In this document: positions 35,994 to 45,088 of the stretch, one piece after another | Layout of the letters: every line of letters begins with the position of its first letter | Position numbering within the stretch: position 1 is the first letter of the stretch | Assembly: GCA_013151445.1 (NCBI GenBank) | Contig: JAADIG010000052.1 | Span: forward strand, 2 to 64,001 | DNA: 64,000 bases | DNA from: Actinomycetota bacterium | GTDB lineage: Bacteria; Actinomycetota; Acidimicrobiia; Spongiisociales; UBA5794 | Reading direction: 5' to 3' | Made by a program: the position numbers and the translations under genes | Notes under the pieces: model-generated | The model's input: the letters and a program-made list of their open reading frames with translations, nothing else | Database searches by the model: none | What the model was told of the DNA's origin: nothing

Positions 35994-37125
35994 TCATTCG
36001 GCTCCCTCCGAATCCGAGGTCTCGTGTTGCTCTCTGCGCCACTGCAAATACCCCTCGACGAAGGCGTCAATGTCCCCATCGAGAACGCCCTGCACGTTGC
36101 CGACCTCAACATTGGTCCGGAGATCTTTCACCATCTGATAGGGCTGCATGACATACGAACGAATCTGCCGACCCCACCCAGCTTCGGACTTGTCACCACG
36201 CACGGCGTCGATTTCCGCGATTTGAAGTTGGCGAGAATGCTCAGCCAGGCGAGAGGCAAGGATCTGCATTGCACGATTCTTGTTCTGAAGCTGCGACCGC
36301 TCGTTCTGGCAGGCGACAACGATCCCGGTAGGCAGATGCGTGATCCGGACCGCAGAATCCGAGGTGTTGACATGCTGCCCCCCGGCCCCCTGCGAGCGAA
36401 ATGTGTCGATCCGAAGATCGTCCTGGTTGATCTCGATCTCATTCGCCCCGATTTCAGGAACCACATCGACACCCGCAAAGCTTGTGTGTCGTCGAGCCTG
36501 GGAGTCGAACGGTGAGATGCGTACCAACCGATGGGTTCCGCGCTCGCTCTCGAAGATGCCATACGCATGGTCACCGCTGATCGTTACCGTCGCCGACTTG
36601 ATCCCCGCCTCATCGCCCGCCTGAATCTCGTCGATAACAAACTGCAGGGGGCTGCGCTCCAGGTAGCGCACATACATTCGCAGCAGAATCTCCGCCCAGT
36701 CCTGAGCATCGACTCCACCAGCGCCAGCGTGCACGCTCAGGATGGCAGTTCGGTCGTCGTACTCGCCGAAATACAGTGTCTCTCTTTCGAGCTCCGCAAC
36801 CGTCACTCCAAGCGTTGCGAGCTCGGCAACCAGTTCGGCCTCGGAGTCGGTGTCACCCTCTTCGATCGCGAGTTCGAGCAGCGTCTCGGTATCGTCCAGA
36901 GTTTCGGCGAGACCGCCGACCCGCTCGATGATGCCCTCGAACCGAGAGAGCCTTCGAGTGACGGTGCGGGCGCGCTGGGGGTCTTCCCACAGATCCGGCT
37001 GTGCTGCGATCTCCCGCAACGTTTCGAGCTCAACTTCCTTGCCCGGGATGTCAAAGGAACCTCCGGGCATCGTCAAGACGGGCACGCAGTTCGTTGATCT
37101 GGGCATGGGGATCAGAAACATTCAT
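35994..37125 (-). CDS. prfB: Peptide chain release factor 2, with programmed +1 frameshift
   Basis: Frame 0 reads MNVSDPHAQINELRARLDDARRFL and ends at the minus-strand motif GGAGG-TTC-CTT-TGA-C (37051-37056). The +1 frame continues DIPGKEVELETL...SPFDSQARRHTSFAGV...GGQHVNT. Confidence 0.85.
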
Positions 37126-37170: not shown

Positions 37171-39804
37171 TTACGCCACCGCCCCGGGTTTTCCATGACA
37201 GTGTTTATATTTCTTGCCCGATCCACAATGACATGGTTCGTTGCGCCCGATTTTGTCCTTGACACGAACTGTCGGGCGTTTCGTCGTCGGTCCAGATGTC
37301 TGGACATTCTTGGGGCGCTGGGGCTGCGTCCGCTGCTCAACCTTGACGTGATACACATAGCGAATTCCGTCGCGCTTGACGGAGTCCACAAGGGATGCGA
37401 ACGCGTCATACGCCTCATGTTGATATTCGACCAGGGGGTCTCGTTGCGCGAGGGCACGGAGTCCGATCCCCGACCGCAAGTAGTCCATCGCAGCTAGATG
37501 GTCACGCCACTTGTTGTCAATCACGGTGAGGATCACTGACCGCTCCAACTGGTGCAGCAAGTCCGTACCGAGTTCCTCCTCGCGAGCCTTGTACGCGTTC
37601 GCCGAGTCGGCGAGATACGCTTCGACGACATCATCCTCGGTCAGCACCTCCGGGTCGCCGAACGATTCCCTTGTCAATGACGCCGGGTAAAGCTGCGCCA
37701 TGTTGTTCTGGAGCTCTTCCCAGTCCCAATCGAACGGCTCAACACCCTGAATGATGAAGAGCACCTCTTCCTCGATGACCTCCTGCCTCCAGGTATCGAC
37801 GAGCGTCTTAGTATCGTCGTCCTGCAGAACCTGGTTTCGCCACTCATAGATGATCTTGCGCTGAGTGTTCATCACTTCGTCGTACTTCAGCACGTTTTTG
37901 CGAATCTCGAAGTTCTGTGACTCGACCTGAGTTTGTGCCCGCTCGATGGCCTTGGAGACCATGCTGGCTTCGATAGGGACATCGGGTGGGATCTTGAGCC
38001 GGGCCATGATCGACGCAACGCGCTCGTTGGCGAACCGACGCATCAGATCGTCGGTCAAAGAGAGATAGAAGCGGGACTCCCCCACGTCACCCTGGCGTCC
38101 GGAACGACCTCGCAGCTGGTTGTCGATACGGCGCGAGTCATGACGTTCGGTGCCCAGGACATAGAGTCCGCCGGCGTCAAGCACGATCTGTTTCTTGTCT
38201 GCGGTTTCCTTGGTAAACCTGTCGATTGCGGTCGCAAGAAGTGCCGGGTAATCCTCGGAGTCCGTCTCGACCCCCTGACGCCGTAGCTCCTGCTCGGCGA
38301 GCGCTTCGGGGTTACCACCGAGCTGGATGTCAACACCACGTCCCGCCATGTTGGTTGCGACCGTGACCGAACCCGGCTGACCGGCCTGGGCAACGATTAC
38401 ACCCTCATTGGCGTGCTGTTTGGCGTTGAGAACTTGATGTTTCACGCCGTTGCGATCGAGGTAGCTCGACAGCAGTTCGGATTTTTCGATGGAGATCGTG
38501 CCAACCAGAATCGGCTGCTGGGCGGCGTGCCGTGCAACAATATCTGCCACCAACGCGTCGAACTTCGCGTCCTCGTTGACGTACACAAGGTCCGGTTGGT
38601 CGGCGCGCGCAATCTCACGATTCGTTGGCACGACAACGACGTCAAGATCGTAGATCTCCTTGAACTCACCCTGTTCGGTGATCGCCGTACCCGTCATCCC
38701 CGCAAGCTTTTCGTACATGCGGAAGTAGTTCTGCAGGGTGATCGTCGCAAGCGTCTGGTTCTCTTCCTTGACCCGGACGCCTTCTTTGGCTTCGATCGCC
38801 TGATGTTGTCCTTCCGAGTACCGCCGGCCCTCAAGGACACGTCCGGTGAATTCGTCGACGATCATCACCTCACCGTCCTTGATGAGGTAGTCAACGTCCA
38901 GCTCGTAGAGTTCCTTTGCCTTCAGCGCGACATCGAGATGCTGAATCATGTCGACGTTGGCGAAGTCATACATGTTTTCGATGCCGAGGATTTCCTCGAC
39001 TCGATGGACACCCTCTTCTGTGGTGATTACCTGACGCTTCTTCTCGTCGACTTCATAGTGAACGTCACGTCTCAGGGTCTTGGCGATACGGGCAAACTCC
39101 TTGTACCACTTACCCGACTCGCCGACGATGCCGGAAATAATGAGCGGAGTTCGTGCTTCGTCGATGAGGATCGAGTCAACCTCATCGATAATCGCGTAGG
39201 CGTGCCCGCGCTGGACCATGTTCTCGGGCCGCATTGCCATGTTGTCGCGGAGATAATCGAAACCAAATTCGTTGTTCGTGCCATGCGTAATATCTGCTTC
39301 GTACGCTGGACGACGCTCCTGGGGAGTCATCGATCCCTGGATGAGGCCAACCTTGATCCCAAGGAACTCGTGGACACGACCCATCCATTGGGCATCGCGC
39401 GCGGCAAGGTAATCGTTCACGGTCACGATATGGACCCCGCGCCCGGTGAGGGCGTTCGCGTAGGCTGGCATTGTTCCAGCAAGGGTCTTTCCCTCTCCCG
39501 TACGCATCTCGGCGATCATGCCCCGGTTTAGGGCACCAGCACCGACTATCTGGACGTCGTAGTGACGCTGCCCGAGGACACGTTTTGCGGCCTCACGAAC
39601 GACGGCGAACGCCTCGACCTCAATGTCGGCGACCGTGGCGCCGTTGGCGATACGGTCACGGAATTCCGTGGTCTTGGCACGCAGTTCGTCGTCGGTGAGG
39701 TCAACGACACCAGGCTCGGCGGCATTGACGGCGTTGACAAGAACTTGAAGTTGCTTAAGCGGCTTGCCTTCACCAAAACTCAAGACTCTGTTGAAAATTG
39801 ACAT
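37171..39804 (-). CDS. secA: Preprotein translocase ATPase SecA
   Basis: MSIFNRVLSFGEGK start, DEAD-motor motifs and the C-terminal zinc finger CHCGSGKKYKHCHG. The upstream part of the 1082-aa ORF is Arg-rich shadow overlapping the next gene. Confidence 0.9.
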   Translation of the reverse strand: MSIFNRVLSFGEGKPLKQLQVLVNAVNAAEPGVVDLTDDELRAKTTEFRDRIANGATVADIEVEAFAVVREAAKRVLGQRHYDVQIVGAGALNRGMIAEMRTGEGKTLAGTMPAYANALTGRGVHIVTVNDYLAARDAQWMGRVHEFLGIKVGLIQGSMTPQERRPAYEADITHGTNNEFGFDYLRDNMAMRPENMVQRGHAYAIIDEVDSILIDEARTPLIISGIVGESGKWYKEFARIAKTLRRDVHYEVDEKKRQVITTEEGVHRVEEILGIENMYDFANVDMIQHLDVALKAKELYELDVDYLIKDGEVMIVDEFTGRVLEGRRYSEGQHQAIEAKEGVRVKEENQTLATITLQNYFRMYEKLAGMTGTAITEQGEFKEIYDLDVVVVPTNREIARADQPDLVYVNEDAKFDALVADIVARHAAQQPILVGTISIEKSELLSSYLDRNGVKHQVLNAKQHANEGVIVAQAGQPGSVTVATNMAGRGVDIQLGGNPEALAEQELRRQGVETDSEDYPALLATAIDRFTKETADKKQIVLDAGGLYVLGTERHDSRRIDNQLRGRSGRQGDVGESRFYLSLTDDLMRRFANERVASIMARLKIPPDVPIEASMVSKAIERAQTQVESQNFEIRKNVLKYDEVMNTQRKIIYEWRNQVLQDDDTKTLVDTWRQEVIEEEVLFIIQGVEPFDWDWEELQNNMAQLYPASLTRESFGDPEVLTEDDVVEAYLADSANAYKAREEELGTDLLHQLERSVILTVIDNKWRDHLAAMDYLRSGIGLRALAQRDPLVEYQHEAYDAFASLVDSVKRDGIRYVYHVKVEQRTQPQRPKNVQTSGPTTKRPTVRVKDKIGRNEPCHCGSGKKYKHCHGKPGAVA

Positions 39805-39845
39805 GAGGTAGCAATTGTAGAGCGCTCCGAGGCTATCGGAGCGCC

Positions 39846-41189
39846 TTAACTCTGTGCCGGCGAGTTTGACCGCGCAATCGTCTCCAACAACGTCGCCGGG
39901 TCGAAGTCGGCCTGCTGTGGCAGCAGCTGAACAGCGACGTCGCTCACGTTGATAACCAAAGGTTCGGGGCTGATCTCGGCACCCTTGGTATCGCGTACGA
40001 TGAACGTGGCGAGCGGTGCGTCGGGCTCCGTGGGGCGCTCTGCAACCACCACCGTCTCGCCGGTCTTCAGCCGGAGGATTGAACCGGGAGGGAACACACC
40101 CATCATGGAAATGAACGCCTTGACGACGTCGGGATCGTACGAGGAACCGGCGGCACCGAGCACAACGTCGAGAGCGCGAGCTGGCGTCTCTGCCCTTCGA
40201 TATGACCGGCGTGTCGTTATTGCATCGTAGGTGTCGACCACAGATACGATTCGAGAAAATATGTGGGGCCGGCGAGTTCTGCGATAGCTGGGGTAACCCT
40301 GACCATCGAAACGGGCGTGGTGCTCCAATGCGACCGTCGCGGCGATTTCGTTGCCCTCTCCCCCGGCCGCAAGAATCGCAAGAGCACCCTCTTGGGGATG
40401 GAGCTGGATCTCCTTCCATTGACCATCGTCAAGACGCCCAGGCCAGTTGAGGGTGGCTGCCGAGACCGCTACTTTCCCGATGTCATGGAGCACGGCACCG
40501 ACGCCGACCGGTACCAAACTCTCCTTGTCGACACCGATCATCCGACCCGTTGCGAGAGCGAGAATGCACGTGTTCACGGAATGAAAGAACGTGTACTCGT
40601 CGTGACTCTTCACGGTCGACAACAACAAAGACGCACTGGAATGGGATACGGCGTGTTCAAACAATCCCTCGACTGCATCAACAACCGCGGACAGCTCGAT
40701 CGCCCCCTGGCTTGCCATTGAGCTCGTGACGCCGCGTAGAGCGTCGATGCCGTCGGTATATGACCGGCGCACCGCTGACATCGATGATTCCTCGGGTTCC
40801 AAACCGGACAGGGAGTAGTCATTGAGTCGGACGGTGCCATCCGCCGGTAGGTCGTCAGAGGAACCGCCAATAAACGCGGCGAGATCTTCAAGGTCGTCGT
40901 GCGATAGGGGCGCTTCGAGGGTTATCGAGTCAATGCCCCGTGCCTGCATGTCACGCAGAAGCACGTGATACTCCAACGAGGTATGCGGCAGCACAATACG
41001 ATCGAGATAAAACGCCGAGTCAAAAATCGCAATATCGGTCCGACCGACACCGGATAGGAGCTCTGCGGCCGCAGTTTCGGCGGTGATGGCCGCCTCCACA
41101 GTCAACGGATGGGCGACCGGGTACAGGCTCAGCTGGCGCATCAACCGGCGCAACGCCCGTAGAAAATGGCTGACCTCACGTTCCTTCAT
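39846..41189 (-). CDS. HD-GYP domain protein (predicted c-di-GMP phosphodiesterase) with N-terminal domain of unknown function
   Basis: HDIGK … HHARFDGQGYP motifs. Confidence 0.8.
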   Translation of the reverse strand: MKEREVSHFLRALRRLMRQLSLYPVAHPLTVEAAITAETAAAELLSGVGRTDIAIFDSAFYLDRIVLPHTSLEYHVLLRDMQARGIDSITLEAPLSHDDLEDLAAFIGGSSDDLPADGTVRLNDYSLSGLEPEESSMSAVRRSYTDGIDALRGVTSSMASQGAIELSAVVDAVEGLFEHAVSHSSASLLLSTVKSHDEYTFFHSVNTCILALATGRMIGVDKESLVPVGVGAVLHDIGKVAVSAATLNWPGRLDDGQWKEIQLHPQEGALAILAAGGEGNEIAATVALEHHARFDGQGYPSYRRTRRPHIFSRIVSVVDTYDAITTRRSYRRAETPARALDVVLGAAGSSYDPDVVKAFISMMGVFPPGSILRLKTGETVVVAERPTEPDAPLATFIVRDTKGAEISPEPLVINVSDVAVQLLPQQADFDPATLLETIARSNSPAQS

Positions 41190-43150
41190 AACTGTCCCAA
41201 ACTCTCACGAGCCGCATCGCGGAACGCTCGCGTCTGGCTACTGAGGGTGAACCGTTTCGATGCGAAACCCTTCAGGGTCTCGCGGCCGAGCTCCGTGTTG
41301 CGGCTCCCGAGAATCTTGATGACCTGAATTGCGACTTCCGGACGTAGACGTTCCTTGGCAAGCTCATCAGTAAGCAACTGGTCAAGGTCGTCCGCCTCGT
41401 TTGACCGCAGGAGGGATGCTCCCGTCTGACGAACCCGCTCGTTTTCGTCACCGAGGCTACGAATCAGGATCGGAGCCGCGTTCTGGCGCATGAGTCTCAC
41501 CAGGCTACGCAGCACCTCGACGCGGACACGGTACTCCTCGTGGGATAACAGGCGCCGCAGACCTGGGACAGCAGCGTCGCGGTCCGTCTTCCCGAGGACA
41601 ATCGCGAGGTTGCGAATCACGTACCAGGGTTGATGGTTCAAGTAGTCGTCGAGTACACGTGGGTTGCGGTTTGCGGACGCCGCGAGCAACTCCGTGATGG
41701 CGCGGCGCACCTGGCCGTCTTCTTCCATGGCAAGGTGCTGGACAAGGGGGTCAACGGCCGCGATACCAAAGTCAGCGAACAGGTCGAGTGCACCCTGATC
41801 CGGGTTGGACCCACCACTCACCTCGATCACCGTACGAACGGTTTCTGGCGTCAAGATTCGGGCAACACCCTCGTGGACAATGCCGGTTCGGTCGTGGGAG
41901 TACGACGGGTCCGAAAGAACTGCCGCGACAAAAACCCGGGCGCTCGAGAGATCGGAGGCACGAAGCAGACGCACGACCCGCCCACCCCAGACACGGACGA
42001 CTCTGTAGAACCGATCATCGCGGTACTCGCATTCGAGCAGCGCCCGCAGAGTCGCCCGCGCAAGTACGTCGTAGTCGATGGGAACCTGCATCTCGTCACG
42101 CAACGCAACAAGGGTGTCTCCCATCTCCTGTTGAGAAACATCCGTCACGACCGCGGATACGCGGGCCGCGACAGCCATGCGTTTGGCTTCGACATCTCGC
42201 GAAGATTCCAGGCCCTCGAGCAGATCGGCCGGCGATGCAGATGAGTCAAACGAAGCCAGCTCGGCGTATTCCAGGAGAAGTTTGCGACCTCGCTCACTCA
42301 GGTCGGGGAGGAATGCAGACAATTCGGCACCGGTGAACTGGTCGAGGAACACTTGATGCCGTTCGTCTTTGAGCCGTTCCAGAGACCGCTCCATAACCTC
42401 AAGTTGCACGTTGTGGGGAAGATAGAAGAAGGACTCGATGAACGTACGAAACCCCTTCCATACATCAACCTCTCCCTGGCGGAGCGTCGCAATCATTGCC
42501 TTGGGGCGCGCCGCCAACGGCCATGCCGTTGTGTGGAGTTCTTCGATCCCACCCATGAACTCGTCGGCAGGATCCGCCTCGCCTGCGAGTACGACTGTGG
42601 CAATGTCGACGGGGTCTTCACCACGTTGCGCGGCGGCCGCAGCCGCGATCGTCATGTTTGCGTAGTCGCCTTCTTCGTCGTCCCCATTTTCCTCATCGAG
42701 CTCACCCCCGCCCTCGACAAACGAAAGCAGGCCCCGCTCGAAAACCTCGACCCCACCCAGACCCAGCGCACGCACCACCGCATGGGCGCCCCCTTCTGTG
42801 CGTACCTCGTCATCACTGGTGGCGATAACAGCAAAGAATTCGATCAGGGCCTGGGCCGAGATCGATGCGTTGAAACGAAGAAACTCGATGTCATGCACGA
42901 ACAATTCGCGAGCAAGACGTTCGGCACCCTCGCGAGTCTCCACTTCGTCGCCGGAATCGTCGAGAAAGATCCCCGGACCGACACTAACTGTGACCGGAGA
43001 TTCGAGATCGCGCAACACGTCGAGTGCACGCGTGAATGCCGGTTGACTCCCGGGGTCTGGGTACAACGAGAAGGTCGTCCACGCCGTCCCGACCGCATCG
43101 AGAACGGCCTTGAGCTCACCCGCGGATGATTCCGGCTCTACGGCCCACAT
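41186..43150 (-). CDS. HEAT/PBS-lyase repeat protein (hypothetical)
   Basis: 654 aa with an acidic patch and C-terminal HEAT-like repeats (…VIRNLAIVLGKTDRDAAVPGLRRLLSHEEYRVRVEVLRSL…). Overlaps HD-GYP start by 4 nt. Confidence 0.6.
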   Translation of the reverse strand: MWAVEPESSAGELKAVLDAVGTAWTTFSLYPDPGSQPAFTRALDVLRDLESPVTVSVGPGIFLDDSGDEVETREGAERLARELFVHDIEFLRFNASISAQALIEFFAVIATSDDEVRTEGGAHAVVRALGLGGVEVFERGLLSFVEGGGELDEENGDDEEGDYANMTIAAAAAAQRGEDPVDIATVVLAGEADPADEFMGGIEELHTTAWPLAARPKAMIATLRQGEVDVWKGFRTFIESFFYLPHNVQLEVMERSLERLKDERHQVFLDQFTGAELSAFLPDLSERGRKLLLEYAELASFDSSASPADLLEGLESSRDVEAKRMAVAARVSAVVTDVSQQEMGDTLVALRDEMQVPIDYDVLARATLRALLECEYRDDRFYRVVRVWGGRVVRLLRASDLSSARVFVAAVLSDPSYSHDRTGIVHEGVARILTPETVRTVIEVSGGSNPDQGALDLFADFGIAAVDPLVQHLAMEEDGQVRRAITELLAASANRNPRVLDDYLNHQPWYVIRNLAIVLGKTDRDAAVPGLRRLLSHEEYRVRVEVLRSLVRLMRQNAAPILIRSLGDENERVRQTGASLLRSNEADDLDQLLTDELAKERLRPEVAIQVIKILGSRNTELGRETLKGFASKRFTLSSQTRAFRDAARESLGQL

Positions 43151-43156
43151 AGCCGA

Positions 43157-43807
43157 CTACCCGATTGAAATGAGATTCTCGCGCACTGCATAGAGCACCG
43201 CTTCGTTGCGCGAGTGCAAACCCAGCTTGTCGAGAATGTTCCGGATATGGTTCTTGACTGTGTTCTCCGAGATAAACAATGATTCCCCTATCGACCGTGA
43301 GGTCATCCCCTTTGCAACTAACTGCAATACCTCGATCTCACGTCCGGTCAAGGTGGGTTTCCGAGCCTGCAGAAGCTCCTGATGACGCAGCAGCACACGA
43401 CAGACGTCGAATAACTTTCCGGCCATCTGCGACGAGATCACCGCACCCCCATCGACAACTGCGCCAATCGACTCGACCAGCTTGTCGAACGGTGTGTCTT
43501 TGACGATGTAACCTCGAGCGCCGCTCTTGAGTGCGGACAGCATGTCTTCTTCGCTCTCCGATCCGGTGAGCAGAACAACCTGGCAACCCGGGGCCACCGC
43601 AGTGATTTTCTCGACAACTTCGAGCCCAGAAATACCCGGCATCAACACATCGAGCAGGACGATGTCGGGTTGAAACTGCTCGGCGCTCGCGACCGACCCC
43701 TCCGCGGTGTCGGCTTCGCCGACCACGTCAAAACCGGCACCTCGCAATGCGGAGGTCAGTCCGGCTCGGAAAAGGGGTACGTCATCAACGACGAGCAGTC
43801 TGGTCAT
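43157..43807 (-). CDS. NarL/FixJ-family response regulator (REC + LuxR HTH)
   Basis: LLVVDDVP…D(55)VLMPG receiver domain and a C-terminal LuxR HTH (LTGREIEVLQLVAKGMTSRSIGESLFISENTVKNH). Confidence 0.85.
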   Translation of the reverse strand: MTRLLVVDDVPLFRAGLTSALRGAGFDVVGEADTAEGSVASAEQFQPDIVLLDVLMPGISGLEVVEKITAVAPGCQVVLLTGSESEEDMLSALKSGARGYIVKDTPFDKLVESIGAVVDGGAVISSQMAGKLFDVCRVLLRHQELLQARKPTLTGREIEVLQLVAKGMTSRSIGESLFISENTVKNHIRNILDKLGLHSRNEAVLYAVRENLISIG

Positions 43808-44352
43808 GTTGGTTCAATCAGTCCTAGAGATCCGTCACGACGGTGGTACAGCACACAATGTTTGCCGGTATCGGCGTCCAGAAAGAAGAAAAAAGCGTGA
43901 CCTAACATCTCCATCTGAAGCACAGCCTCCTCAACTAACATTGGCCTCATTTCGAACCGTTTGGTCCTTACGACCGCTGGCCCTCCGTCATGATCATCAT
44001 CGGGAAGCTGGTCGACGGCATTGAGATGTTTCTTTTCGGCATTTCGCGAACGTTGGTAGAGGCGTTCCTTGAGCCGGCGAAGCTGACGCTCGAACTTTTC
44101 GAGCGCAATGTCAAGAGCGGCGACATCGTCCGGCGCACTCGACTCCACACGAACCGTATGACCAGCCTGGTGGGTCGTGATTTCCACCTTGAACTTTTCA
44201 TTCACGAGACGAGGATTGTGCTCCTGGGTGAACTCGACATCCGTTGACCCCCCGGTATTGAAGATCCGGCCCGCGTGCCTCACCTTCTCCTCGGCGATCT
44301 CACGAACATGGTCCCGTACCTGCATATTGCTGCCGTGCACTCGAACGTTCAC
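43804..44352 (-). CDS. hpf: Ribosome hibernation promoting factor (long HPF)
   Basis: RaiA/HPF N-domain (…EVTPALRE-like, KFERQLRRLKER) plus C-terminal dimerisation domain. Probable GTG start. Stop overlaps RR start (ATGA). Confidence 0.75.
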   Translation of the reverse strand: MNVRVHGSNMQVRDHVREIAEEKVRHAGRIFNTGGSTDVEFTQEHNPRLVNEKFKVEITTHQAGHTVRVESSAPDDVAALDIALEKFERQLRRLKERLYQRSRNAEKKHLNAVDQLPDDDHDGGPAVVRTKRFEMRPMLVEEAVLQMEMLGHAFFFFLDADTGKHCVLYHRRDGSLGLIEPT

Positions 44353-44491
44353 TGGGTCTCCTTTCGGGAGCGAAAACCCGCGCCACACAACCGCGCGGGC
44401 ACTGGGAGAATGCGATCAAACGAGGCGCTGCTAGACGCAGGGCGGGCCCTTGGCCTCAACACGCTCGGCTTCTCAGCCACGCCGCCTCCTT

Positions 44492-45088
44492 TTAATGATC
44501 GTCGCTGTGACGATCTCTCGCGCTTCCTATTTTAGCGGATGCGGTGGCTAATAGCGCACCGACGACGTGGCCTGTGATCGACTGGACAGCACTGTCGATC
44601 GTGAGTCCAGTCGTCACGACATCATCGACCAGCAAGGCGCCATCAGGTACGGTTCGGATCGGTGTAAAACGAACGGTCGCACGATGGCCTGTACCGGCGT
44701 GGCTCGGCCACCACACGGAGGCAGCGAACGCGTGTATGACCGGTAGCCCGACGATGCGCCCCACGGAGTGAGCGAGTTCGACCGCAGGATCGACGCCGTA
44801 TCGAACACGACGCAGCACCGACCGTGGCAGCGGTACCAGGACCCGAGCCTCTCCCGGGACTAGGGCTGCCATCGGGTTCGCCAGGAGCGTCGCATTGCGC
44901 ACCGCAGCGCGGTACTTCAACTCGTGTACTAACAATCGTGCGGTGCCCTCGTGCCTGAATGCCGCCCGGGCAAGCACCCCGGCGGGTGTTATCCGTTCTG
45001 GTGCCAACTGCAACGACTGCCGACACGACTCACACAGCGGCCCCGCACCCCATGCCCCACAGGCTGCGCACATCGGAATACTCACCAT
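44492..45088 (-). CDS. ComF-family phosphoribosyltransferase-domain protein
   Basis: N-terminal Cys-x2-Cys pairs and a C-terminal PRTase motif LLVDDVVTTGLT. Confidence 0.75.
   Translation of the reverse strand: MVSIPMCAACGAWGAGPLCESCRQSLQLAPERITPAGVLARAAFRHEGTARLLVHELKYRAAVRNATLLANPMAALVPGEARVLVPLPRSVLRRVRYGVDPAVELAHSVGRIVGLPVIHAFAASVWWPSHAGTGHRATVRFTPIRTVPDGALLVDDVVTTGLTIDSAVQSITGHVVGALLATASAKIGSARDRHSDDH

What the first reader, a model, noticed from the sequence alone, without database searches (positions are those of the whole stretch)
39846..44352. hpf cotranscribed with a response-regulator / HEAT-repeat / HD-GYP module inserted between hpf and secA
- In mycobacterial-type synteny comF, hpf and secA are consecutive.
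- Here three genes lie between hpf and secA: a NarL-type response regulator, a 654-aa HEAT/PBS-lyase-repeat protein and an HD-GYP phosphodiesterase (HD…GYP motifs intact).
- The junctions hpf/RR (ATGA) and HEAT/HD-GYP (4 nt) overlap. hpf is therefore probably co-expressed with a c-di-GMP-degrading signalling unit.
- The unit has no histidine kinase. The HEAT protein may be the sensor or scaffold.
- This suggests coupling of ribosome hibernation to second-messenger turnover.
Basis: partly seen in the sequence, partly recalled or inferred. Interest (0 to 1): 0.6.

Follow-up and report, generated by a model that had tools for sequence, protein, structure and literature searches.

The report
hpf–regulator–HEAT–HD-GYP operon before secA
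In this uncultured Acidimicrobiia bacterium the ribosome-hibernation gene hpf is packed into one tight gene string with an OrrA-type orphan response regulator and an undescribed two-gene cassette (a HEAT-repeat protein plus an HD-GYP cyclic-di-GMP-type phosphodiesterase); the gene order is real and old, but a working link between hibernation and second-messenger turnover is only inferred.

Summary
**Observation: confirmed.** On the minus strand lie comF, hpf, a NarL-type response regulator (RR), a 654-aa HEAT protein, a 447-aa HD-GYP protein, secA and prfB. The hpf/RR and HEAT/HD-GYP junctions are ATGA overlaps. The RR/HEAT gap is 6 nt.

**Interpretation: partly right.** The three genes are two separable units.

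- **The RR is not an insertion.** An hpf-RR pair occurs across Actinomycetota. It matches the Streptomyces hpf (SCO3009)-orrA (SCO3008) locus by position. OrrA's kinase is encoded elsewhere, so the missing kinase is expected.
- **HEAT + HD-GYP is a self-contained cassette.**
  - It stands alone, nearly always with a 4-nt overlap, in other Actinomycetota and in metagenome contigs.
  - In one order-level Acidimicrobiia clade it sits between the RR and secA, and it has been lost from that slot several times.
  - The two proteins share an unnamed N-terminal domain.
  - A complex model passes its controls (0.68 against 0.30).
- **The HD-GYP looks active.** Its catalytic residues are invariant in 28 orthologues. 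The genome has GGDEF and EAL genes and no SMODS cyclase was found, so c-di-GMP is the likeliest substrate.

**Limits.** Co-transcription is supported only by conserved tight spacing. No RNA data exist.

**Seen before.** The scan found the same operon in at least five other genomes and read it the same way.

**Verdict:** new variant of a known kind, moderate interest.

The parts
44492..45088 (-). comF (ComF-family phosphoribosyltransferase-like protein), upstream neighbour
   Evidence: Weak TIGR00201 comF match. It holds a conserved position upstream of hpf in all related loci.
44349..44480 (-). 43-codon upstream ORF between comF and hpf. Its stop overlaps the hpf start (GTGA). It may be a leader or a remnant of a comF tail.
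   Evidence: It has an AAGGAGG site 5 nt before its GTG. It is kept only within the genus. In several other relatives comF itself runs on to overlap the hpf start.
43804..44352 (-). hpf, long-form ribosome hibernation-promoting factor (182 aa)
   Evidence: PF02482 plus PF16321. TIGR00741 scores 60.7 bits against a cut-off of 40.9. GTG start with AAGGAG.
43157..43807 (-). OrrA-type orphan NarL-family response regulator (216 aa)
   Evidence: REC plus GerE domains. D8, D9, D53, T81 and K103 are invariant or nearly so in 95 orthologues. It follows hpf across Actinomycetota. L088 shows mtrA-mtrB-lpqB-comF-hpf-RR, the same order as SCO3013 to SCO3008.
41186..43150 (-). HEAT-repeat partner protein (654 aa). 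It consists of an N-terminal alpha/beta domain (about residues 10-140), a conserved helical middle (about 165-400) and HEAT repeats (about 440-654).
   Evidence: HEAT_2. AF2 model with pLDDT 82. Alignment A2. 795 cluster representatives match its non-HEAT half.
39846..41189 (-). HD-GYP phosphodiesterase (447 aa). It consists of an N-terminal domain (1-125) homologous to that of the HEAT protein, a linker helix, the HD-GYP catalytic domain (about 190-365) and a small C-terminal beta-barrel (366-447).
   Evidence: HD_5. PmGH 4mcw E 1.3e-23. Bd1817 Z 17.5 over model residues 12-366. Metal ligands and the GYP motif are invariant in 28 orthologues.
37171..39804 (-). secA (877 aa), downstream neighbour with its own 41-nt leader
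   Evidence: All SecA Pfam domains are present. ATG at 39804. The HD-GYP>secA gap is 41-161 nt in relatives.

Best explanation
This is a conserved, probably co-transcribed string hpf - orphan NarL-type regulator - HEAT protein - HD-GYP, built from two evolutionary units.

**Unit 1: hpf plus an OrrA-type response regulator.**
- This is the ancestral actinobacterial pair.
- The regulator has an intact phospho-acceptor pocket. It is presumably phosphorylated by a kinase encoded elsewhere and acts as a transcription factor.

**Unit 2: a self-contained two-gene cassette.**
- It was acquired once at the base of an order-level Acidimicrobiia clade and later lost from several lineages.
- Its HD-GYP enzyme most likely hydrolyses c-di-GMP.
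- The HEAT protein most likely binds the catalytic domain of the enzyme and controls or targets it.
- Both proteins carry the same unnamed N-terminal domain. That domain may receive a common signal or mediate assembly.

**Proposed working.** Conditions that switch on hpf (starvation or stress) also make the regulator and the phosphodiesterase complex. Ribosome hibernation, a transcriptional switch and a fall in c-di-GMP would then come on together.

**Shown:** gene identities, conserved order and spacing, separability of the two units, the shared N-domain, conserved catalytic residues, and a complex model that passes its controls.

**Inferred:** one transcript, enzyme activity and substrate, physical binding, and any functional tie to hibernation.
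For: **Gene identities and locus**
- Pfam, NCBIfam and PDB identify the genes.
- The order comF-hpf-RR-HEAT-HDGYP-secA-prfB is found in 18 of 20 loci from about 17 genera.
- Spacing is -4 to +27, -4 to +8 and -4 nt in every cassette locus.
- No intergenic terminator was found.

**Regulator is ancestral**
- hpf-RR adjacency holds in about 80 loci, including Actinomycetes, Mycobacteriales and Frankiaceae MAGs.
- L088 is mtrA-mtrB-lpqB-comF-hpf-RR.
- SCO3009 is HPF (PMC7157823). SCO3008 is OrrA, a NarL orphan RR with the kinase OhkA (PMC9739842; bioRxiv 10.64898/2026.01.30.702861).
- The RR phospho-pocket is invariant or nearly so in 95 orthologues.

**Cassette history**
- It is confined to one strongly supported clade. 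About 6 label changes are needed, at least 3 of them forced.

**Cassette stands alone elsewhere**
- Stand-alone pairs occur in L022, L114, L117 and an ENA contig.
- Further pairs lie in G116, G070, G042 and G307.

**Shared N-domain**
- hhalign gives E 1e-4.
- The two AF2 models have the same order of secondary-structure elements.
- The HEAT profile hits the partner's N-domain and the reverse also holds.

**Enzyme**
- H203, H235/D236, H264, H290, H291, D295, G296, G298, Y299, P300 and D319 are conserved.
- Bd1817 gives Z 17.5, and PmGH and PA4781 give about 13.6.
- The genome has 5 GGDEF, 3 EAL and 4 HD_5 matches, and no SMODS match.

**Binding**
- The complex model scores 0.68 against a best control of 0.30. 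That mark was reached by 58 of 80 solved complexes and by 2 of 110 mismatched pairs. These counts hold only roughly here, because my own alignments were used.
Against: - There is no transcript evidence. Only DNA metagenome runs hold the stretch.
- The cassette works without hpf or the RR in many genomes. It was lost repeatedly here while hpf-RR stayed. Its place may reflect a permissive slot. In Actinomycetes the same RR-secA slot holds unrelated genes: AlkZ-like, GNAT and TPP enzymes.
- Residues of the modelled interface are not more conserved than the rest. For HEAT the means are 0.56 against 0.50, reached by 469 of 5000 shuffles. For the HD-GYP they are below the domain mean.
- The Glu that ligates the third metal in PmGH aligns with Tyr here, although a conserved Glu lies one residue earlier. 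The metal count and the product (pGpG or GMP) are therefore open.
- OrrA orthology rests on position and family. It was not tested by a reciprocal search against a named Streptomyces genome.
Confidence: 0.6

Rival explanations
1. Neighbourhood without shared function. The HEAT/HD-GYP cassette landed in a permissive slot downstream of the hpf-RR pair. It is read through from the same promoter, but its signalling role has nothing to do with ribosome hibernation or with the regulator.
For: - The cassette is autonomous elsewhere.
- It was lost at least 3 to 5 times from this slot.
- The RR-secA slot is variable across the phylum.
Against: The RR>HEAT gap stays at -4 to +8 nt in every lineage that keeps the cassette, down to about 63% secA identity. 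This argues for selection on coupled expression rather than neutral adjacency.
Confidence: 0.3
2. The HD-GYP acts on another nucleotide (3'3'-cGAMP, c-di-AMP, pGpG), or it is mainly a sensor or adaptor whose output goes through the HEAT protein rather than through hydrolysis.
For: - V-cGAP3 (5z7c) is the second-best sequence match (E 4e-21).
- PgpH, a c-di-AMP enzyme, is a fold match.
- A DAC cyclase is present in the genome.
- The HD_5 score is the second-lowest of the four copies in the genome: 60.8 bits against 130, 106 and 49.7.
Against: - No SMODS-type cyclase was found in a genome that is 98% complete.
- GGDEF and EAL genes are present.
- All catalytic ligands and the GYP motif are invariant in 28 orthologues, which argues for an active enzyme.
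Confidence: 0.15
3. The regulator and the cassette form one signalling path. The RR, like DevR in mycobacteria, responds to c-di-GMP, or it is bound by the HEAT protein. The phosphodiesterase would then tune the regulator that controls hpf.
For: - There is a precedent: c-di-GMP binds the C-terminal domain of the NarL-type DevR (review PMC12564702).
- RR and HEAT genes are tightly coupled wherever they co-occur.
Against: - The RR is equally conserved in genomes without the cassette.
- It has no Trp, so it has no VpsT-type W[F/L/M][T/S]R motif (sequence).
- No interaction was tested.
Confidence: 0.12

Closest known systems
Streptomyces hpf (SCO3009) - orrA (SCO3008) locus in the mtrAB-lpqB ... 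secA region
   Same: - A long-form hpf is followed directly by an orphan NarL-family response regulator, with comF upstream and secA downstream.
- An Actinomycetota MAG locus (L088) shows mtrA-mtrB-lpqB-comF-hpf-RR.
- The literature names SCO3009 as HPF and SCO3008 as OrrA.
   Different: - Here hpf and the RR overlap by 4 nt. In Actinomycetes-type loci the gap is 28-255 nt.
- mtrAB-lpqB is not adjacent in the window.
- The slot before secA holds HEAT/HD-GYP here, and AlkZ-like, GNAT or other genes there.
- RR identity to the Actinomycetes-type orthologues is only 47-51%.
- The known OrrA targets (wblA and a DUF5999 gene) were not examined.
Structurally solved HD-GYP phosphodiesterases: Bd1817 (3tm8), PmGH (4mcw), PA4781 (4r8z), DvhD (9rbz), V-cGAP3 (5z7c)
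   Same: - The same catalytic fold and the same H..HD..H..HH..D plus GYP signature.
- Bd1817 aligns over model residues 12-366, so the alignment includes part of the N-terminal region.
   Different: - The input domain is neither REC nor PAS, and it has no Pfam match. DUF3391 was not found.
- There is an extra C-terminal beta-barrel.
- The enzyme is encoded as an obligate gene pair with a HEAT protein that carries the same N-domain. No solved HD-GYP has such a partner.
RpfG-type HD-GYP proteins that bind partner proteins through the GYP region (my own knowledge of the Xanthomonas RpfG-GGDEF work; not checked here)
   Same: The complex model places the HEAT protein against the HD-GYP catalytic domain. 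The contacts include residues 300-314, directly after the GYP motif.
   Different: - The partner is a HEAT-repeat protein, not a GGDEF protein.
- The contact is only modelled.
PBS-lyase / CpcE-type HEAT repeat proteins
   Same: HEAT_2 and PBS-type repeats occur in the C-terminal third.
   Different: - CpcE equivalog score is 19 bits against a cut-off of 330.
- There is no phycobiliprotein context.
- Two-thirds of the protein is not HEAT repeat.

Membership tests
HD-GYP phosphodiesterase (Pfam HD_5, PF13487) | Domain match above the curated cut-off | tested here: met
   61.7 bits against a cut-off of 27.2, residues 196-355. All 28 orthologues match.
HD-GYP phosphodiesterase (Pfam HD_5, PF13487) | Metal-ligand set H...HD...H...HH...D and the HHxxxDGxGYP motif | tested here: met
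   H203, D236, H264, H290, H291, D295, G296, G298, Y299, P300 and D319 are invariant, and H235 nearly so, in 28 orthologues. They align residue for residue with PmGH.
HD-GYP phosphodiesterase (Pfam HD_5, PF13487) | Third-metal Glu of the trinuclear PmGH class | tested here: inconclusive
   The PmGH Glu aligns with Tyr199. The conserved Glu198 lies one residue earlier.
HD-GYP phosphodiesterase (Pfam HD_5, PF13487) | Fold similarity to solved HD-GYP enzymes | tested here: met
   Bd1817 Z 17.5; PmGH 13.7; DvhD 13.6; PA4781 13.5. Foldseek E is 1e-4 to 1e-6. The catalytic loop 263-303 is modelled with low confidence.
HD-GYP phosphodiesterase (Pfam HD_5, PF13487) | Hydrolysis of c-di-GMP | not testable with these tools
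   Needs an enzyme assay. Context only: GGDEF and EAL genes are present and no SMODS cyclase was found.
OrrA-type orphan NarL response regulator | REC plus GerE/LuxR HTH architecture with an intact phospho-acceptor pocket | tested here: met
   D8, D9, D53, T81 and K103 are kept in 95 orthologues.
OrrA-type orphan NarL response regulator | Gene lies directly downstream of hpf in the comF-hpf-...-secA region, with no adjacent kinase | tested here: met
   SCO3009 is HPF and SCO3008 is OrrA. No HisKA_3 kinase lies on the window's contig.
OrrA-type orphan NarL response regulator | Reciprocal best match or tree placement with Streptomyces SCO3008 | not tested
The nearest Actinomycetes-type orthologues are 47-51% identical.
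OrrA-type orphan NarL response regulator | Activates wblA and a DUF5999 gene | not testable with these tools
   Known from ChIP-seq and proteomics in Streptomyces only.
Long-form HPF | S30AE N-domain plus C-terminal dimerisation domain | tested here: met
   PF02482 (residues 15-110) and PF16321 (137-190) of the ORF as listed. TIGR00741 is above its cut-off.
Phycobilin lyase CpcE/F (PBS-lyase HEAT) | Equivalog-level match and a bilin context | tested here: not met
   19.2 bits against a cut-off of 330. Only the repeat type is shared.
DUF3391-HD-GYP proteins | PF11871 N-terminal domain | tested here: not met
   No member of A1 matches at E up to 1. The only hint is a language-model lead at 0.82.

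The most novel reading that the evidence does not exclude
The HEAT protein and the HD-GYP enzyme form a dedicated heteromeric phosphodiesterase of a kind not yet described. Its two subunits carry the same sensory N-domain. In this Acidimicrobiia order the complex has been recruited into the hibernation operon. Entry into or exit from ribosome hibernation would then be gated by c-di-GMP through the OrrA-type regulator or through direct docking of the HEAT scaffold.
Probability: 0.12. Interest if true: 0.75.

Novelty: new variant of a known kind. Interest (0 to 1): 0.45.

Why it matters
- **A new partner type for HD-GYP enzymes.** HD-GYP enzymes are the least understood c-di-GMP phosphodiesterases. 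Their partners and inputs are known in only a few cases.
- **A widespread, unnamed family.** The cassette is a gene pair with an obligate HEAT-repeat partner and a shared, unnamed N-terminal domain. 795 cluster representatives match the HEAT protein's non-HEAT half. It would be a new regulatory format for this enzyme class and is directly testable by co-expression.
- **A natural experiment.** Its placement in a tight string with hpf and an OrrA-type regulator could show whether c-di-GMP and ribosome hibernation are co-regulated in Actinomycetota.
- **A point for Streptomyces work.** The hpf-orrA pairing is phylum-wide and is translationally coupled in Acidimicrobiia.
- **If only co-location:** the result is still a cleaner annotation of a recurrent locus.

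Tried and rejected
- **BLASTP of the two cassette proteins** found nothing. The shared N-domain appears only with profiles.
- **N-domain to N-domain heterodimer.** This was my first idea and the complex model did not bear it out. The model puts the contact between HEAT residues 231-271 and 346-391 and the HD-GYP catalytic domain.
- **Interface conservation.** The test gave no enrichment, so the exact interface is not supported beyond the model's own score.
- **DUF3391 as the identity of the N-domain.** No Pfam match.
- **Actinomycetes genes in the RR-secA gap as diverged HEAT/HD-GYP.** They are AlkZ-like, GNAT and TPP enzymes.
- **Promoter and terminator scan.** Nothing above the shuffled expectation and nothing in the intergenic gaps.
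- **RNA evidence.** Only DNA runs from hydrothermal-vent metagenomes hold the stretch. I did not lay reads.
- **VpsT-like c-di-GMP motif in the RR.** Absent, since the protein has no Trp.
- **The 43-codon ORF before hpf.** Conserved only within the genus, so it is not part of the main finding.
- **Short-HEAT variants (L054, L069, L077).** Their HD-GYP partners lack the LYPxxHP motif. This is suggestive covariation, but it rests on three probably related genomes, so it carries little weight.


Full report
**What is there**

On the minus strand of the window the ORF list and family scans give this order:
- prfB (35994-37121)
- secA
- a 447-aa HD_5/HD protein (39846-41189)
- a 654-aa HEAT_2 protein (41186-43150)
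- a 216-aa REC+GerE response regulator (43157-43807)
- a long-form hpf
- comF (44492-45088)

Reading the junctions:
- hpf starts at GTG 44352, behind AAGGAG.
- hpf and the regulator overlap in ATGA.
- The regulator and the HEAT gene are 6 nt apart.
- The HEAT and HD-GYP genes overlap in ATGA.
- secA starts at ATG 39804, 41 nt after the HD-GYP stop.

The 1082-aa 'secA' ORF in the list is an artefact of an open upstream frame.

The organism is an uncultured Acidimicrobiia bacterium from hydrothermal-vent metagenomes. It is close to 'Bacterium BMS3Bbin02'.

**Is the arrangement more than chance?**

- The HEAT protein has full-length homologues in 25 of 41 related genomes. This count includes one unpublished genome, G038, which I did not use further.
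- I took 20 kb around 20 of these hits. Eighteen show the same string comF-hpf-RR-HEAT-HDGYP-secA-prfB, from about 17 genera and several families.
- In cassette loci the exact distances are hpf>RR -4 to +27 nt, RR>HEAT -4 to +8 nt and HD-GYP>secA 41-161 nt. HEAT>HD-GYP is -4 nt in every full-length cassette locus, and -1 nt in one short-HEAT locus.
- A consensus scan finds no terminator in any intergenic gap and nothing above the shuffled expectation.
- This conserved packing is the only evidence for one transcript. No RNA run holding the stretch was found.

**The regulator is ancestral, not inserted**

A scan of one genome per species with the regulator returned 80 loci.
- In nearly all of them hpf lies directly upstream and secA downstream.
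- This includes loci at 47-51% identity from Actinomycetes, Mycobacteriales and Frankiaceae MAGs.
- One of these, L088, reads mtrA-mtrB-lpqB-comF-hpf-NarL RR, with equivalog-level NCBIfam matches for MtrA and MtrB and family-level matches, below the equivalog cut-offs, for LpqB.
- In Streptomyces coelicolor SCO3013-3011 are mtrA, mtrB and lpqB. SCO3009 is HPF (PMC7157823). SCO3008 is the orphan NarL-type regulator OrrA.
- OrrA's kinase OhkA (SCO1596) is encoded elsewhere. OrrA activates wblA and a DUF5999 gene (PMC9739842; bioRxiv 10.64898/2026.01.30.702861).

The window's regulator is thus the positional counterpart of OrrA. I did not have a named Streptomyces sequence for a reciprocal test.
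- Its phospho-acceptor pocket (D8, D9, D53, T81, K103) is kept in 95 orthologues, so a kinase is expected.
- The genome has seven HisKA_3 kinases, none on this contig.
- In Actinomycetes-type loci hpf and the RR are 28-255 nt apart. In Acidimicrobiia they are coupled.

**The HEAT/HD-GYP pair is a separable cassette**

- About 30 Acidimicrobiia loci have hpf-RR followed directly by secA, with a gap of 46-586 nt.
- In Actinomycetes the RR-secA slot holds unrelated genes: AlkZ-like, GNAT and a TPP enzyme.
- On a secA tree of 67 loci the cassette is confined to one clade with 100% SH-aLRT support. It has 49 rows, 21 of them with the cassette.
- Within that clade the cassette occurs in the early branches and in several subclades. 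Six label changes are needed, at least three of them forced by supported branches. One gain and several losses is the simplest history.
- Two relatives carry a second HEAT+HD-GYP pair elsewhere. The pair in L022 stands between a divergent USP-ABC1 kinase gene and a convergent hydrolase gene.

A profile of the non-HEAT half of the protein (A3) finds 795 cluster representatives at E up to 1e-3 among 1.84 billion proteins. Most are 580-690 aa long.
- In every distant case where the downstream gene was visible it is an HD_5 gene, usually with a 4-nt overlap. One contig has an RsiG gene next door.
- In an even sample of the phylum the profile hits 28 of 301 genomes and 22 of 199 genera. This count includes one unpublished genome, G126.
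- In G116, G070, G042 and G307 the pair is again HEAT protein (650-785 aa) followed by HD-GYP (439-507 aa). No hpf, secA or close RR lies nearby.

**The two proteins share a domain and are modelled to bind**

- BLASTP between them shows nothing.
- The first roughly 100 residues align profile to profile, with E 1e-4 and probability 57%.
- The AF2 models give the same order of elements in both: two helices, a hairpin, helix, strand, helix, strand. Confidence is high.
- The HEAT-derived profile hits the N-terminus of the neighbouring HD-GYP in several unrelated genomes, and the reverse also holds.
- Pfam has no model for this domain. DUF3391 does not match.
- The best solved relative is Bd1817, with Z 17.5 over model residues 12-366, followed by PmGH, DvhD and PA4781.
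- The C-terminal 80 residues form a small beta-barrel.

A complex model of HEAT 10-654 with HD-GYP 1-355 scores 0.68 against a best control of 0.30.
- That mark was reached by 58 of 80 solved complexes and by 2 of 110 mismatched pairs. It holds only roughly here, because my own alignments were used.
- Contacts run between HEAT residues 231-271 and 346-391 and HD-GYP residues 215-228, 250-251, 266-288 and 300-314, next to the GYP loop.
- The interface residues are not more conserved than the rest. I therefore take the model as support for binding, not for the exact contact.

**Is the enzyme active, and on what?**

- All metal ligands and the GYP motif are invariant or nearly so in 28 orthologues. 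They align with PmGH.
- The Glu that holds the third metal in PmGH is shifted by one position, so the metal count is open.
- The genome encodes 5 GGDEF, 3 EAL and 4 HD_5 matches, one DAC, and no SMODS cyclase at 98% completeness.
- c-di-GMP is the likeliest substrate. This is inference.

**How it most likely works**

- Conditions that induce hpf also produce the regulator and the HEAT/HD-GYP complex.
- HPF silences ribosomes. The phosphorylated regulator changes transcription. The phosphodiesterase lowers c-di-GMP, under control of the HEAT partner and of whatever the shared N-domain senses.
- A direct path from c-di-GMP to the regulator has a precedent in DevR (PMC12564702) but no support here.
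- The rival reading is that the cassette merely occupies a permissive slot. Its autonomy and repeated loss favour that reading. The strict retention of translational coupling wherever it is kept argues against it.

**Comparison, novelty and verdict**

- The hpf-orrA pairing is known as gene numbers in Streptomyces, but I found no discussion of it.
- No paper that links HD-GYP with a HEAT partner, or c-di-GMP with an hpf operon, turned up.
- The scan itself has met this operon in at least five other genomes, and the follow-ups reached the same reading. I consulted these after forming mine.
  - the complex model with its controls;
  - the negative conservation test of the interface;
  - the gain and loss count on a tree;
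  - the cross-detection of the N-domain in distant pairs.
- I rate it a new variant of a known kind, of moderate interest.

Noticed in passing
window 44349-44480 (-): A 43-codon ORF with a strong AAGGAGG site starts 11 nt after the comF stop and ends in GTGA on the hpf start codon. It is kept in the two genomes of the same genus, with poor peptide conservation. In several other relatives comF itself runs on to overlap the hpf start.
   Followed up: partly
window 37171-40419 (-): The ORF list shows secA as 1082 aa, overlapping the HD-GYP gene. The SecA_DEAD profile starts at residue 215 and the real start is ATG 39804, with no obvious Shine-Dalgarno sequence in the 41-nt leader.
   Followed up: yes
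L054, L069, L077 (relatives): Three genomes have a short HEAT protein (344-358 aa) that keeps only the C-terminal half. Their HD-GYP partners have lost the LYPxxHP motif of the N-domain. This may be co-variation between the two N-terminal parts.
   Followed up: partly
G000 contig C86:887-2642: The window's genome carries two further HD_5 (HD-GYP) genes next to each other on contig C86, and a GGDEF+HD_5 fusion on C8.
   Followed up: no
ENA contig of P0133: A distant HEAT/HD-GYP pair lies next to an RsiG-family gene. RsiG is the c-di-GMP-binding anti-sigma factor family of Actinomycetota. This is a small hint that the cassette lives in c-di-GMP circuits.
   Followed up: no
L058, L059: Two loci with typical Acidimicrobiia hpf-RR-secA synteny come from MAGs labelled 'uncultured Kiloniellales' (Pseudomonadota). 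On the secA tree they sit inside Acidimicrobiia, so they are probably mis-binned or mislabelled.
   Followed up: partly
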